From positions 320,001 through 384,000 of the forward strand of contig CAWDSK010000002.1 in assembly GCA_963804995.1 (NCBI GenBank): a DNA stretch of 64,000 bases, read 5' to 3'. Every line of letters starts with the position of its first letter. The first letter of the stretch is position 1. Source of the DNA: an uncultured Acidobacteriota bacterium. Lineage in GTDB: Bacteria; Acidobacteriota; Terriglobia; UBA7540. Shown one piece after another: positions 27,001 to 36,000 of the stretch. Position numbers: made by a program.

Positions 27001-30000
27001 ACCGGCACGAGGACAAGTTGAGTCTGCTTCCGCTGTGCCCTTTAGCCCGTTCGTAATCGAACATACACTTGCGGGCGACAGCGGCGAGGTTATATCCGTC
27101 GCCTTCAGCCCTGACGGGAAATTGCTTGCCTCGGGTGGCAGGGACAAGACGGTCAAGCTCTGGGACGTGGTCTCTGGGACGCTGAGGAAAACGCTGACCG
27201 AGACCACCTGGGGAGGGGTTGGTCCTGTTGCCTTCAGCCCGGATGGCAAGCTCCTGGCCTCTGGAAGTGACGCCGGACCGATTAAGCTCTGGGACGTGGC
27301 CTCTGGGACGCTGAGGAAAACGCTTAGCGGACACAGCGTTGTCTACTCGGTCGCCTTCAGTCCGGATGGCAAGCTCCTGGCCTCTGGAAGTGACAACGTT
27401 AAGCTCTGGGACGTGGCCTCTGGGACGCTGAGGCAGACGGAGAGCGGACACCACGGCCTTGTCAACTCGGTCGCCTTCAGCCCGGATGGCAAACTCCTGG
27501 CCTCCACAATCATTGAGTTTCCCAGTCAGGATGGGAAATGGCTGGCCTCCAGAAGCGTTGACTTTATGCTCTGGGATGTGGCGTCCGGGACGCTGAGGAA
27601 AACGCTGACTGACTCCCACATGGGGTTTTCCCTCGCCTTCAGCCCTGATGGAAAACTCTTGGCTTCGGGAAGCGGTGACAAAACAACAGTCAAGCTCTGG
27701 GACGTGGCCTCCGTGATGCTGAGGAAAACGCTCGCTGGGCACGAAGACTCTGTCGACTCGGTCGCCTTCAGCCCTGATGGAAAACTCTTGGCTTCGGGAA
27801 GCGGTGACAAAACAGTCAAGCTCTGGGACGTGGCCTCTGGGACGCTGAGGCAGACATTGACCGGACATAACTCATGTGTCAATTCCGTCGCCTTCAGCCC
27901 GAACGGGAAACTGTTGGCCTCCGGGAGCGCCGACAAGACCATCAAACTATGGCGGCGTGAGGAAAATATCACTGGTTCAACCGGACGAGAGACCGGGGTC
28001 GAAGCCACAACCTCGCAAATGGTCCGAACCCCAGGAGAAATACGGGAGAATGCGAAAGATGGTCTCAGGTATGTTTGGATTCCACCCGGGACGTTCATGA
28101 TGGGCTGCTCGCGAGGAGACAACGGATGCATGGACGACGAAAAACCATCACACCGGGTGACCATCACCAATGGTTTTTGGATCGGGCAGACGGAGGTTAC
28201 GGTCCGGGCCTATAAGCGCTTCGCGGCGGCCACGAGGCGGCAAATGCCACGTGAACAGATTCGTGACGAGCCACCGCCCAATCCCGGGTGGGGTGATGAG
28301 GCCATGCCCATTTTCAATGTGACATGGGGTGATGCCCAAGCATATTGCAGTTGGGCGGGCGGGAGGTTGCCGACCGAAGCCGAGTGGGAGTATGCGGCGC
28401 GTGGTGGGAGCACCACAACGCTTTATGGACCGCTGGATGAAATTGCATGGTACCGTGGCAACAGTGGCGGCCAGAGCTTAAACGAAAAAGTTTACGGCAT
28501 GCACGAAGTGGGCCAGAAGCGCGCCAACGGATTCGGGTTGTACGACATGCTGGGTAACGTTTGGGAATGGGTGAACGACTGGTACAGCCCGAACTACTAC
28601 CACACCAGTCCGTCTCAGGACCCTGCAGGACCCGAGAGCGGGACAGAGCGAGTTCTTCGCGGCGAGTCCTGGTTCAACAATGCCAGTGACATTGGCGTAT
28701 CTGGCCGCAGCAGGGATGAGCCAAGCGGAAGGGAAAGCGGCTACGCAGGATTTCGTTGTGTCGGAAGAGTGTTTGCTCCCTAACCCTTTTCCCTTTCCCT
28801 TGACGCCTTGTTGAGCGCATGTGGACCCCTTGCACTCCACTTGTCAATGCCCGAGAATTGAGCCCGGAGGCGGAAAACAAAGGCCACCACGGTGTAGCGT
28901 TTGCGCTTGCATCACGCTCTGGTATACAGCCCGGAGGCAAAAGTGGACAAAACCGATGAATTCGTGCGTGCCCGCAGCCGACTGACTGGCCTAAAACAGA
29001 ACATCCCGCCGGAATACGGCTACGTCCAAGAAGATTGCGTTAACGAGTACCATAAGGTTTTGGACAACCTGACCCAACTGGGATGTGATCTGGAGGAGTT
29101 TAAGATTCCTGACCAGTGGATGGAAACTTACACTTGGCAGGTCCCCGATGGCGAGGGCTATGAGACCAGGTATAGCAGCACGCGTCAGGTAATAAGGGAG
29201 AAGTTCCTGATGAAACTTGACTCGGTCCTGTACTACCTTTCGTCCCTGGCTTCATCGAAAAGTCAGGGTCCGATTGGCTTCAGATGATGCAGGAAGTATA
29301 TCGAATTTACAGGGATAATGATGTAGGTTTTCAACCTTCGGCTAGATGTCAATGTAGGTAATCTTCTCATTAAATTACGGAGCGAAACAAATGGAGCAAC
29401 CCAAAGAGCGAAGCACCCAGGTAACGGTTACGTTTCAGTATAAGGGGCCAACTGATACAAGGCCGTGGGATGAAGGACAAGTCGCGGATCTTACCTTTAA
29501 GGTCCCGTATGGAACACCGATAGTTACTGTGCCCATACCGGCCGTAGGAGATAGCGTCAGCTTAGAATTGCAAAAAAAAATGAAATCGTACAAAGTCTTA
29601 ACGCGACATTTCTCCTATGATGAAGTTGAGGGCAGCCTGCTTATCGCAATAAACATAGTTGTCACCGATATAAGTAGTAACGAAATGTTGGAACGGTTGA
29701 AAGTGTAGCTTTTCTCATGCCTGATGCCCTTGGCATCTCACGCCTTGTTCATGAGCGTTCTTTCCACCGCTTTCGGGTTTCGATCAATCACCGTCAAGTA
29801 GGCGCGCACCGCGCTTTCCGGCCGCCTGCGCCCTTGCTCAAAAGCAGTGACAAGTGACGAGTGGCGAGAATAACAATCCTCGAGTGGGGCCGGAGGCAAC
29901 GCGGCGCCCCACGAACACGGGCAACATCTCTGTCACCGCGTCCTATCCGTGGCCGGTTCTGGCTTCTTAACGGTCGACGGCATAAAGGGTGATGGCGTCG

Positions 30001-33000: not shown

Positions 33001-36000
33001 GGTTGCTCTCGTCGGGTGAAACAACCAGGCAAGGACGGGTTTTCTGGATTTCCGCCCCCTGCGTGGGATCCAGAGATACCAACCAGACCTCATCCAAGCG
33101 CGGTAGGTCGACTACCACCGCCACTCCTCCCGATCGAACTGACTCGAGGGAGTGTCGAGCAACAGTTCATCGTGGGCGGAAGAGCCGGCGGCGCGGAATG
33201 CTTCCTCCCAGCCCTGGCGCGGCAGACGGGCCGGCGCGATCACGAGATGATCGTTTTCGATCCGAAGTTCAACGGCGTCCTCGAAGCCGCACTGTTCGAT
33301 GATGGGCTTGGGGATTCGGATACCTCGCGAATTTCCAACCCGGACAAGTTCAACCTTCATGGCGGTCAATGACCTCGTGCTTACATTGTAATCACATAAG
33401 AGCTTTTTGGCAAGCGCGGGTGGCGCCCCGATGCACCGGACCGCCACACACGGGCAACATCTCTGTCACGCGTCCCATCCGTGGCCGGTTTTGGCTTCAG
33501 TAGCACCCCGATGCATCGGGGTGTGCTCTGCATGGAATGCATCAGCTCGAGCCACAGGCAGGAGTGCCCCTGCTACCCTCGGTCCGAAATCGTGCTTGCA
33601 ATTCTGGGATGAAGAAAAGGGTGCAACAGCCGCCTGGGGAAACACGTCGGGCGAAGTCTGAACCTCAATTCTGCCTTTAGAAGCGTCCGCGAAAATCGAA
33701 CAGGTCGTCCAGGGAAAGCTGCCAGCCGGGAAAGAGGTTGGAGGTGAGAAGGTGATGGCCTGCGTACGTGGCTTCGACCATATACTTTGCCCCCTGGAGT
33801 GTCAAAACCTCGACGGTCTTGGCCTGGGGGTCAATAAACCATACCTCGGGCACGCACGCCTCGGCATAAATCGGGAGCTTGGTGGCGCGGTCGTGTCCGG
33901 CCGTGGAAGGGGACAGCACCTCCACGGCAAGGTCCGGAGAACCCGCAATCCAATTCTCCTGAATGATTCCAGCGCGCGCATTGGAAATGAAAATAAGGTC
34001 CGGCTGCAATACCGTTTCTTCACCCAGGCGCACGTCCAAAGGTGCTGGGCAGACTTCGCCCAAGTGGTTCTTATAGACGTACGGCCCTAAGTCTTGCAAG
34101 AGATGCTGAAGGGTGAGTTGGTGCCGCGTGGCAGGAGATGGAGTCACATGCACCTCTCCATGTACGAGCTCATAGCGCTTCCCGTCGCTGGGAAGTTCGC
34201 GGAATTGCTCAAAGGTAAGCTTGGGAATGACTTCTGTGCCCATGTGCTTATTATACCCCCACGCGGGCGGCGCAGACATTGCCTTTTATGTATGTGCCCG
34301 ACAAAGGGCAACATCCCTGTCACCGCGTCCCATCCATGGCCGGTTCTGGCGTCTTAACCTGCCTTTCGCACTTCCACCCGCTACCGGGCTGATTTTGGCA
34401 GCTTGCGGTGCACAAGGTCTTTGCCTTCAATGGGCGCGGGTTGAAGAGTGCTTGTAGGCCCGACCTACCCTCTTTTCTGGGGCGCGAAGGTCTGGCATTC
34501 TGGGGCGTGCACCTGAAGATTCATCGACGCAAAAAGGACGGCAAGGAACATCGTTATTTCAGCATCGTCGAGAGTCGGCGCGTGTCGCGCTCGAAGGTCG
34601 TGCATCGGACGGTGCTGTATCTGGGCGAAATCAACGACAGCCAACAATCCGCGTGGCGCAAGACGCTGGAGGTTTTTGACGAGGACCGTCGCGTCCTCGC
34701 GTCCCTGAGCCTCTTCCCGGAGGACCGCGAACTTCCTGCGGATGCTGTGGACGGCGTACAAGTGAAGTTGAGTGAAATGCGCGTTGAGCGGCCGCGCACC
34801 TTCGGTGGCTGTTGGTTGGGCTGCGAGCTGTGGCGCCAGTTGAAGCTGGACGAGTTCTGGCAGGCGAGGTTGCCGGAAGGGCGCGAGGGAGTTCCGTGGG
34901 AGAAGGTGCTACGGCTGCTGGTGGTGAACCGGTTGATCGAGCCGGGCAGCGAATTCCGTGTGCATCGGCACTGGTTCGATCAGACCGCCATGGCCGAGTT
35001 GCTGGCAGTGAACTTCGCGGTGGCCGAGAAGGACCGGCTCTATCGTTGTCTGGATCGAATACTGGCGCACAAGGCGGAGTTGTTCCAGCACCTGCGGCTG
35101 CGGTGGCAAGACCTCTTTGCGGCGCGCTTTGATCTGCTCCTCTACGATCTCACCAGCACCTATGTGGAAGGAGAGGCGGAAGCGATTCCCAAAGCCCGCC
35201 ACGGTTACAGCCGGGACGGGCGGTTCGACTGTCGGCAGGTGGTGATCGCCCTGGTGCTGACGCCGGAAGGTTTCCCGCTGGCCTACGAAGTGATGGAGGG
35301 GAATACTTCCGACCGGAACAGCTTGCGCGGTTTTCTGGACAAGATCGAGAGCGTGTACGGCAAGGCACGGCGGGTGTGGATGATGGATCGGGGAGTTCCC
35401 AGTGAAGAACTGCTGGCGGAGATGCGCACCCCGGGGCGGGAGATGTTTTACCTGGTGGGGACGCCACGGGGCAAGATCCGGCAGTACGAAGCGAAGTGGA
35501 CGGAACTGCCGTGGCGGAAGGTGCGCGAGTCGGTAGAGGTGAAACTGTTCGCGGAGGAAGGCGAGTTGTATGTGCTGGCGAAGAGCGCAGGCCGCCAGGC
35601 GAAAGAGATGGCCATCCGTCGACGCAAGCTGGCACGGCTGTTGTGGAGGCTGCGGGCCTTGCGGCGCGTGTGTCCGACGCGTGATGCGTTGCTGATGAAG
35701 ATCGGAGCAGCCAAGAGTGAAGCCGGACGGGCCTTCGGTTTCGTGAAGATCAGCGTGCCCAAGGCCCAGGAAGAAGTGACTCGCCAGACCTTCCAGTTCC
35801 GGCTCGAGCGCAGCAAGTTGGAGGAAGCGGAGCGGCGCGATGGACATTATCTGTTGCGCACCAATCTGACGGGGGAAAATCCCGAGGTGTTGTGGGACCG
35901 CTACATGCAACTGGCGCAGATCGAAGCGGCCTTTAAGTGTTTGAAGAGTGAGCTGGGAATTCGGCCGATTTATCATCAAATAGAACATCGCGTCGAGGCC

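What a model noticed while it worked through the whole genome (the two positions that open the first line are those of the whole stretch)
28943..34279. Over 130 toxin-antitoxin pairs sit as promoter-bearing cassettes between direct copies of interspersed repeats
The genome holds about 130 type II toxin-antitoxin pairs, and about a third of those with open flanks are compact promoter-plus-two-gene cassettes bracketed by direct copies (60-370 bp, 73-95% alike) of one interspersed repeat family. They build integron-like arrays without an integron, which points to REP-type repeats as the route of TA capture.
Evidence so far: 253 TA-type genes in 133 paired modules. With both flanks at least 120 nt, 27 of 90 TA pairs have a direct repeat across them against 55 of 1,461 other units (odds ratio 11, p 2e-15); with flanks of 250 nt or more, 22 of 47 against 38 of 480; only 1 is inverted-only; flanks of different TA pairs match each other in 1.9% of cases. 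In 14 aligned cases the repeat commonly starts within tens of bases of the stop codon and ends before the cassette's own promoter. Arrays at C2:349-354 kb, C6:1495-1500 kb and C9:92.7-97 kb.
(Added by a program. Inside this text positions count along the whole contig: contig position 320,001 is position 1 of the stretch shown here. "Call 12" and the like, gene names such as g00115 and contig names such as C1 are that model's own, and its searches are not shown. The text may have been shortened before it was handed on; [...] marks where a part breaks off. The agent that wrote the report below was given it as the finding of a first reader that could run no searches.)

Follow-up and report, generated by a model that had tools for sequence, protein, structure and literature searches.

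The report
Toxin-antitoxin arrays built by REP mini-elements
In a group of uncultured acidobacteria, toxin-antitoxin gene pairs are stacked and reshuffled as cassettes between copies of a miniature element that carries the ends of a hairpin-cutting transposase gene (RAYT), which points to an integron-like gene-capture system that needs no integron.

Summary
Six families alone give 123 toxin/antitoxin anchors. 28 of 96 TA modules carry direct repeats against 112 of 2,623 other units, and the excess survives a repeat-density control (22/57 vs 104/805).

Correction: genome-wide the brackets belong to many repeat families, and only some are REPs.

This window's array is sharper than reported. Four TA pairs and Uma2 lie between five copies of a mini-element (guide-hairpin ends, conserved ~60-nt core). 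A RAYT (Y1/HUH) gene subfamily in relatives has the same ends. Across 28 arrays, 26 cargo types recur at about 90% identity, always in one orientation (140/140) but in random order (16 same, 24 reversed).

The right end joins foreign DNA at CG (14/26 junction families vs 31/468 control). In a few loci it has closed on an upstream CG. Hairpins travel with their cargo; the core does not.

Best model (inferred): RAYT circularises cargo plus element at CG, and the circle integrates through the core. No IntI or attC was found, and the cognate RAYT was not found in this genome. I did not find this in print; the scan noted similar arrays on other DNA.

The parts
25841..28783 (+). Ser/Thr kinase-WD40-FGE gene; this kinase family often abuts the arrays and is transcribed towards them (context, role unknown)
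   Evidence: Pfam; kinase within 9 kb at 11 of 18 core-bearing loci that were chosen by the core pattern or by cassette hits, not by the kinase
28943..29708 (+). Two orphan ORFs (114 and 105 aa) between the kinase and the array
   Evidence: No Pfam hit for either, no NCBIfam hit
29710..29850 (-). 'H' stump: 3' end of a higA-type antitoxin gene with its downstream hairpin, reused as a repeat
   Evidence: 11 copies in the genome; HTH/MqsA-like hit for the sister copy; whole higBA cassette in relatives
29878..30010 (-). Mini-element copy 1: left hairpin end, conserved core (about 29915-29972), decayed right end
   Evidence: (D2, D8, D11)
30035..30636 (-). Cassette TA1: ParD-like antitoxin (30361-30636) and ParE toxin (30035-30364)
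   Evidence: PF05016, TIGR02606 weak; 86-91% identical copies in three relatives
30747..30940 (.). Spacer without a core: a REP-like repeat (43 BLAST hits) plus a second H stump
   Evidence: (D6, D13)
30948..31544 (-). Cassette TA2: sigma70-like promoter (TTGACA 31539-31544, 17 nt, TATAAA 31516-31521), Phd-like antitoxin 31231-31509, unlabelled putative toxin 30948-31238
   Evidence: sequence; PF02604 below cut-off; 84-96% identical copies in six relatives
31553..31660 (-). Mini-element copy 3: half left end, core, complete right end finishing in CG (31553-31554) 9 nt before the TA2 -35 box
31673..32145 (-). Cassette TA3: small antitoxin 31957-32145 and ParE toxin 31673-31960
   Evidence: PF05016; RelB/ParD-like weak; shared with four arrays
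32225..32331 (-). Mini-element copy 4 (core about 32265-32317)
32331..32775 (.). Mosaic of further repeats: long inverted repeat, GTAG hairpin doublet, third H stump, and a REP of the family that flanks the RAYT at C5:58 kb
32777..33413 (-). Cassette mazEF with promoter (TTGCCA-17-TACAAT, 33385-33413), mazE 33112-33369, mazF 32777-33124
   Evidence: PF04014 and PF02452; promoter scan; 84-97% identical copies in five relatives' loci
33415..33577 (-). Mini-element copy 5: left hairpin doublet, core, right end finishing in CG directly before the mazEF -35 box
   Evidence: an element-free homologue has CG at the same place
33677..34255 (-). Cassette Uma2 (putative nuclease; a non-TA cargo) with a TATAAT box just upstream of the start
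   Evidence: PF05685; four copies in arrays
34262..34357 (-). Mini-element copy 6: right end of the type that closes RAYT genes in relatives, plus core; interrupted by IS1634
34354..36376 (+). IS1634 inserted in the TTAA of the core, TTAA duplicated
   Evidence: NF033559 over cut-off; flanks
36373..36546 (-). Remainder of copy 6's left end and a 3' remnant of a TA3-like parE, so the array once continued past the IS
   Evidence: (D7)

Best explanation
The spacer is a non-autonomous miniature of a RAYT (Y1/HUH, TnpA-REP-like) element: left end (GTRG guide plus hairpin), a conserved ~60-nt core, and right end (hairpin plus CCACCCG-CG). Step 1 (inferred): the element lands beside a TA operon. Step 2 (junction signature shown, chemistry inferred): RAYT, acting on single-stranded DNA, cuts at the element's own terminal CG and at a second CG beyond the TA, and joins them. 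This gives a circle or tandem copy of [cargo - left end - core - right end]. Step 3 (inferred): the circle enters another element by exchange inside the core, by RecA or by RAYT at a CG in the core. Each cargo then lies between direct element copies, with its upstream right-end hairpin and downstream left-end hairpin inherited with it. Repetition, horizontal exchange within the genus and deletion between copies build and shuffle the arrays. Step 4 (inferred from integron biology): cargo between direct repeats is easily lost, so addictive, self-promoted TA pairs are what persists.
For: Identical ends flank RAYT genes in 14 of 20 RAYT loci fetched (L160-165, 167-171, 174-176 intact or nearly; L177 partial in addition). 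L160 passes NF047646, and the subfamily profile's best structure is TnpA-REP 4ER8, E 3e-18. 106 core-delimited segments form 61 clusters, mostly 0.6-1.1 kb; by my count at least 35 of 45 clusters with cargo over 550 nt carry a TA-family Pfam hit. Across 28 arrays 26 cargo types recur, with median cross-genome identity 90% (parA-parB 75-82%), the same orientation in 140 of 140 pairs, and order 16 same vs 24 reversed. CG precedes the junction in element-free homologues in 8 of 17 families next to a core (4 more TG/CA; control 26 of 306, p 8e-5) and in 14 of 26 for all such hairpin ends (control 31 of 468, p 2e-9). Right ends are followed by a copy of upstream DNA starting at CG or TG: L175 (exact 220-nt tandem copy in a RAYT 3' end), L083 (184 nt), L108 (859 nt spanning a TA), L064 (a CG inside the core). 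Linkage: the hairpin right of the core follows the downstream cargo (type match 70 of 100 vs 417 of 825), the left one follows the upstream cargo (65 of 112 vs 345 of 944), and the core follows neither. E. coli TnpA-REP cleaves at a distance from the REP, recombines BIMEs in vitro and was proposed to sequester flanking genes (PMC3333891, passages).
Against: The RAYT subfamily with these exact ends was not found in this genome (best 53% identity, a sister subfamily with GCTGG-type ends). At E<=1e-60 the query found nothing in the array-bearing genomes G005, G002, G008 and G001. No circle, empty site or RNA was seen; all relatives are other species. About a third to a half of junction families lack CG, and left-end junctions are heterogeneous and could be tested in only one family. 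Characterised TnpA-REP enzymes cut at CT, CA or, with a GTGG guide, CC, not CG (PMC8266576, passages). The linkage pairs share members and ancestry, so their p values overstate. Core alleles next to the right hairpin are also unlinked, so no fixed crossover point is shown. The same TA modules also occur without the element. The model does not explain the kinase association or the codon-like variation of the core.
Confidence: 0.6

Rival explanations
1. RAYT only made and spread the mini-elements in the past; capture and shuffling are now ordinary homologous recombination (with incoming DNA from relatives) between the 100-250-nt repeats, H stumps and kinase paralogues, without a RAYT-made cargo circle.
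For: Cognate RAYT not found in this and several array-rich genomes. Core alleles are unlinked to either side, as many scattered crossovers would give. Arrays lie beside a kinase family whose 5' part is 70-95% alike and could anchor double crossovers. Other brackets are non-REP duplications.
Against: Recombination between repeats does not by itself produce right ends closed on an upstream CG. CG junctions are also what simple insertion of the element would leave, so they do not separate the two models; the tandem-copy cases do, but they are few.
Confidence: 0.27
2. TA pairs and repeats accumulate independently in the same dispensable DNA; the brackets are coincidence.
For: TA modules are enriched in repeat-rich spacers (OR 3.3). 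About two thirds have no direct bracket. The same mazEF sits among unrelated flanks in ten other loci. This probably explains part of the genome-wide count.
Against: The excess remains after conditioning on repeat-bearing flanks, with 0 of 57 inverted-dominant. There is about one core per cargo, fixed cargo-to-core orientation in 140 of 140 pairs, reversed orders and hairpin-cargo linkage.
Confidence: 0.07
3. The core is the site of a separate double-strand recombinase (an integrase-less integron array or an unknown tyrosine/serine recombinase acting in trans).
For: The core is the most conserved part and the apparent exchange zone. The genome has 11 tyrosine-recombinase matches.
Against: No IntI over cut-off (best 78 vs 265 bits). 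None of those recombinases lies near this array. No attC cores in 161 spacers. The core folds weakly (mean z -0.3 to -1.4) with no alignment consensus structure.
Confidence: 0.06

Closest known systems
REPtron / BIME / REPIN systems (TnpA-REP = RAYT with its REPs; TIRYT/TIRtrons in Acidobacteria)
   Same: GTRG guide plus hairpin ends, doublets around a linker, mosaic tandem arrays, a Y1 HUH transposase flanked by the same ends. TnpA-REP recombines BIMEs in vitro and was proposed to pick up flanking genes (PMC3333891 passages); acidobacterial TIR-flanked Y1 genes are described (PMC3733652 passages).
   Different: Here the units carry whole two-gene operons, form multi-cassette arrays that are shuffled and shared between species, and join at CG rather than CT/CA. 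E. coli REPtrons do not move as units, whereas these RAYT loci show unrelated flanks by eye.
Integron cassette arrays (sedentary chromosomal integrons, CALINs) and their TA cassettes
   Same: One module per repeat, random order, shared cassette pool, promoter-bearing TA cassettes that are expected to punish loss (bioRxiv 10.1101/2022.08.03.502626, abstract).
   Different: No IntI and no attC. Cargo is mostly TA, and cargo genes point either way relative to the element.
IS91/ISCR rolling-circle gene capture
   Same: An HUH enzyme, a fixed end and a variable second cut that takes adjacent DNA into a single-stranded circle (PMC9330008 passages). That ISCR circles are rescued by homologous recombination is recalled, not checked.
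   Different: The enzyme here is the short Y1 RAYT type (NF047646) acting in trans on a ~150-250-nt element. The captured units are about 1 kb and stack into arrays.
MITE-bracketed composite elements and REP-associated TA hot spots (ccdO157 at folA-apaH; hicAB replacing the E. coli REPtron)
   Same: A TA locus in a REP-containing variable spacer (PMC3184786 and PMC3333891 passages).
   Different: Those are single loci without a shown cassette unit. Here element copies are direct, and no target-site duplication was found.

Membership tests
Integron / CALIN | Integron integrase IntI in the genome | tested here: not met
   TIGR02249 best 77.9 bits vs cut-off 265; genome 92% complete
Integron / CALIN | attC sites with RYYYAAC ... 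GTTRRRY cores (motif recalled) | tested here: not met
   0 in the window array on either strand and 0 of 161 spacers
Integron / CALIN | One module per repeat, mobile and reordered between arrays | tested here: met
REP/BIME/REPIN with RAYT | GTAG/GTGG-type guide at the foot of a palindrome, arranged as an inverted doublet around a linker | tested here: met
REP/BIME/REPIN with RAYT | A RAYT gene flanked by the same repeat | tested here: met
   In relatives of the same genus and family
REP/BIME/REPIN with RAYT | That cognate RAYT present in the same genome | tested here: inconclusive
   Not found; only sister enzymes at 50-53% identity with related GCTGG-type ends; genome incomplete
REP/BIME/REPIN with RAYT | Cleavage and joining at a specific dinucleotide (CT/CA in studied enzymes) | tested here: inconclusive
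   A dinucleotide preference is seen in junctions, but it is CG; no biochemistry
REP/BIME/REPIN with RAYT | RAYT-dependent single-strand cleavage and strand transfer | not testable with these tools
   needs an in vitro assay
IS91/ISCR | IS91-family transposase in cis with ori and ter ends | not tested
   No search for IS91-family genes was run; the elements carry no ORF and the linked enzyme is Y1-type
IS91/ISCR | One fixed end, variable second end capturing adjacent DNA | tested here: met
   Fixed right end and upstream CG closures in a few loci
DDE MITE / composite transposon | Target-site duplication around the element | tested here: inconclusive
   No true empty/filled pair with both flanks was recovered
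Type II toxin-antitoxin | Two small overlapping genes of known TA families behind their own promoter | tested here: met
   the TA2 toxin is unlabelled
Type II toxin-antitoxin | Toxicity neutralised by the partner | not testable with these tools
   needs expression tests

The most novel reading that the evidence does not exclude
An active, RAYT-driven gene-cassette system: an HUH transposase makes cassette circles by joining a REP end to a distant CG and also inserts them at a conserved core. This would be a mechanistic analogue of the integron built from REP parts, giving REP/RAYT systems a function (capture, storage and exchange of TA and defence modules) and explaining how chromosomal TA pairs multiply in these bacteria.
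Probability: 0.4. Interest if true: 0.9.

Novelty: new variant of a known kind. Interest (0 to 1): 0.74.

Why it matters
Two open questions meet here: what RAYT/REP systems do for their hosts, and how chromosomal TA pairs that carry no transposase get copied to so many places. This locus gives named substrates (element ends, a CG junction, a conserved core), a candidate enzyme and natural intermediates (exact tandem copies closed at CG), so both become directly testable. If right, cassette arrays evolved a second time from an HUH enzyme rather than a tyrosine recombinase, and REP-delimited arrays become a place to mine TA and defence genes that integron finders miss.

Tried and rejected
Rfam scan of 28.7-37 kb: six matches, all far below gathering score.

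Conserved RNA/DNA structure in the core: weak z scores and no alignment consensus.

Core as a remnant of a RAYT gene or of a gene in this genome: only 10-38-nt partial matches in 50 RAYT loci, and nothing for two of its reading frames against my gene calls.

A shared mobility gene upstream of the kinases: two chance-level pairs among 19 upstream regions.

A fixed crossover position in the core: no allele linkage.

Full empty/filled site pairs: none recovered. An empty site for the C1:407 kb mazEF was not established; orthologous flanks were found in relatives but not followed.

Sequencing runs: no RNA holder listed, and the best DNA runs held 9% or less of the words. Contigs laid at 85% likeness came from many organisms, and their joints at the repeats are uninformative.

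The sequence look-up of earlier findings with the RAYT returned nothing.

Two 'same order' counts came from locus L019 compared with itself and were dropped (18 becomes 16).
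Full report
SETTING. The window is C2:320001-384000 of a 7.55-Mb, nine-contig genome, 92% complete. The named records that carry the spacer motif exactly are all Acidobacteriota/Terriglobia metagenome assemblies (39 stretches). The genome is full of palindromic repeats. It has 14 Y1 transposase matches over cut-off; many of them are flanked by their own hairpin family.

OBSERVATION. The array is as described: four TA-type pairs and a Uma2 gene on the minus strand with repeats between them. Six Pfam families give 123 anchors genome-wide, and more TA genes turned up among my controls, so about 130 modules is credible. With my own gene calls, 28 of 96 TA modules with both flanks of 120 nt or more carry a direct repeat, against 112 of 2,623 other units (OR 9.2, p 4e-15; it holds at stricter score cut-offs, OR 3-8). 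Direct dominates inverted 27:1 (others 89:51), and unrelated flank pairs match in 26 of 1,492. TA modules do favour repeat-rich spacers (57 of 96 vs 805 of 2,623), but within that class the excess stays: 22 of 57 vs 104 of 805. They belong to many low-copy families, a strict guide-hairpin test was met on both sides in only 7 of 28, and one is a duplicated gene end.

ANATOMY OF THIS ARRAY. Five copies of one element separate the cargo. Read in the direction of the cargo genes, each has a left end (GTRG guide and hairpin, often a doublet), a core of about 60 nt, and a right end (hairpin, then CCACCCG-CG). The core has 26 profile hits in this genome, in 10 clusters. A 24-nt core motif occurs in 16 of 17 other genomes of the genus and 28 of 120 of the family. 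After the right end the sequence becomes random within a base or two (logo), and in this array it is followed almost at once by the cargo's -35 box. Other recurring pieces are a 3' stump of higA (11 copies) and REPs of further families. IS1634 has split the fifth copy, and a parE remnant beyond it shows that the array was longer.

THE ENDS ARE RAYT ENDS. Searching the family with one of this genome's RAYTs and fetching 20 mid-identity hits showed a subfamily of about 186 aa whose genes are enclosed by exactly these ends. 14 loci are intact or nearly so and one is partial; the other five have the sister or other ends. L160 passes the NCBIfam RAYT model, the HUH and tyrosine motifs are invariant, and the nearest structure is E. 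coli TnpA-REP. The spacer is therefore a non-autonomous derivative with the core where the gene would be. This genome's own nearest enzymes are 50-53% identical and have related GCTGG-type ends. At E<=1e-60 the query matched 15 of 28 genus genomes, about ten at 58% identity or more, and missed several that have arrays.

CASSETTES ARE SHUFFLED. Relatives hold the same cargo at 84-97% identity while parA-parB is 75-82% identical. From 60 fetched or pattern-derived loci plus this genome I cut 106 distinct core-to-core segments in 61 clusters, most 0.6-1.1 kb. Pfam on 80 chosen ORFs shows PIN/VapC, ParE, RelE/HigB, HicA, BrnT, MqsRA, HEPN-MNT, DUF433/DUF5615 and Gp49 pairs, and a few other cargos (Uma2, Schlafen/AlbA_2). 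By my count at least 35 of 45 clusters over 550 nt have a TA-family hit. In 28 arrays, 26 cargo types recur, with median cross-genome identity 90%. All 140 cross-genome pairs keep their orientation to the core. Pairs of cargo that co-occur in two arrays are in the same order 16 times and reversed 24 times, after dropping two self-comparisons of L019. Deletion from one ancestral array cannot reverse order. Cargo genes themselves point either way relative to the core, as expected when each has its own promoter.

WHERE DNA IS JOINED. (a) For right-end junctions I looked for homologues of the downstream DNA that lack the element. CG precedes the junction in 58 of 93 homologues. By independent family it is 8 of 17 next to a core (4 more TG/CA; control positions 26 of 306) and 14 of 26 for all such hairpin ends (control 31 of 468). 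A looser motif gave 33 of 80. Left ends are ragged and only one family could be tested. (b) Six right ends are followed by a copy of DNA lying upstream on the same strand, starting after CG (4), TG or CA. In L175 a 220-nt stretch from a CG in the RAYT gene to the right end is tandemly repeated. L083 repeats 184 nt. In L108 the unit from CG through promoter, antitoxin, a deleted vapC and the element is followed by a diverged copy of its own head. In L064 the end is joined to a CG inside the core. (c) Among 161 sites, the hairpin right of the core is shared by sites with the same downstream cargo (70 of 100 vs 417 of 825) and the left one by sites with the same upstream cargo (65 of 112 vs 345 of 944). 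Neither signal crosses the core, and core alleles follow neither side. These pairs are not independent.

MECHANISM. Shown: the element, its RAYT-type ends, the CG junction preference, closure on upstream CGs, hairpin-cargo linkage and reshuffling between species. Inferred: RAYT cuts single-stranded DNA at the terminal CG and at a CG beyond the neighbouring operon and joins them, giving a circle of cargo, left end, core and right end. The circle enters another element through the core, which yields direct copies and exactly the linkage seen. Whether RecA or RAYT performs that last exchange is open. TA pairs would dominate because they are short, carry their own promoter and kill cells that lose them, as shown for integron TA cassettes (bioRxiv 10.1101/2022.08.03.502626, abstract). 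Against this: the cognate enzyme was not found here, and studied enzymes cut at CT, CA or CC (PMC8266576, passages). No circle or empty site was seen, and the same TA modules also occur without the element.

OTHER ARRAYS. C6:1495-1500 kb carries four or more modules that are 84-96% identical in many relatives at scattered loci. They lie between mosaics of GTAG- and GCTGG-type repeats, and few of the relatives' copies had a direct bracket. I did not test the CG rule there. The strong result is therefore for the core-delimited family, and the genome-wide third is a mixture.

WHAT IS KNOWN. It is not an integron. It belongs with REP/BIME/REPIN systems. TnpA-REP cleaves at a distance, recombines BIMEs, and was proposed to excise circles, add tandem units and sequester flanking genes (PMC3333891, passages; its supplement not seen). 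TIR-flanked Y1 genes are known in Acidobacteria (PMC3733652, passages; PMC6006769, passages). A link of TnpA-REP to lanthipeptide gene expansion was proposed and then left open by its authors (bioRxiv 10.1101/2020.03.09.984088, abstract). Single TA loci beside REPs are noted in PMC3184786 (passages). PMC5581495 (passages) gave no TA link. One-ended capture resembles IS91/ISCR (PMC9330008, passages). Ten full-text searches (listings only, except the papers named) showed no description of RAYT-element-delimited, shuffled TA cassette arrays; the library lacks most subscription papers. Earlier notes of this scan describe REP-bracketed or palindrome-jointed cassette arrays on other DNA, and a RAYT-derived miniature element at gene-block joints elsewhere in this genome; these are unchecked leads.

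VERDICT. Real, non-random and richer than first reported for this array; overstated if applied to all bracketed pairs. It is a new variant of the REP/RAYT kind that works like an integron, with about 40% odds that RAYT drives it actively end to end. Interest 0.74.

Noticed in passing
window 25690-28783; also G000 C6:1271 kb, L011, L013, L015, L022-L025, L070, L071, L073, L077, L079-L081, L083, L084, L086: A Ser/Thr kinase family (5' part mostly 70-95% alike, variable C-terminal domains) abuts many arrays, transcribed towards them, with unrelated genes upstream and shared sequence ending at its promoter. It may itself be a mobile module. The window's copy has its N-terminus cut off by a repeat insertion.
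   Followed up: partly
window 29915-29972 and other core copies: The most variable core positions (16, 27, 54) are mostly synonymous in one reading frame (250 synonymous vs 325 non-synonymous changes; similar in the antiparallel frame; about 100-180 vs 370-445 in the others), as if the core came from a gene. No source gene was found.
   Followed up: partly
window 34354-36376 and G000 C2:21.7 kb: Two of 19 IS1634 copies sit in the TTAA of the element core, with TTAA duplicated.
   Followed up: partly
G000 C5:31.4-32.2 kb, C2:21.4-24.4 kb, C9:147 kb, C6:1266.5 kb: Gene-less 320-324-nt core-delimited units in tandem, and similar ~500-nt gene-less units in relatives (cluster C0), behave like empty cassettes.
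   Followed up: no
G000 C1:407490-408073 (L119) and L181-L190: One mazEF module with sharp ends at the -35 box and the stop codon occurs at 84-93% identity in ten relatives among unrelated flanks. In three loci (including this genome's) a direct repeat ends 2-4 nt before the module, each of a different family.
   Followed up: partly
G000 C1:438.6-439.8 kb (L120): A ParDE pair bracketed by a 238-bp, 91%-identical duplication that includes the end of the neighbouring gene: an integration-type duplication unrelated to REPs.
   Followed up: no
G000 C1:265687, C9:66321: Small genes that look like GxxExxY proteins (label recalled from the sequence, not scanned) are also enclosed by long direct repeats of their own family, as are several RAYT genes.
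   Followed up: no
L164:upstream of the RAYT gene: The left end plus promoter stretch is tandemly triplicated in front of the RAYT gene, another sign of end-driven local amplification.
   Followed up: no
window 28943-29708: Two AT-richer orphan ORFs with no family hit lie between the kinase and the array.
   Followed up: partly
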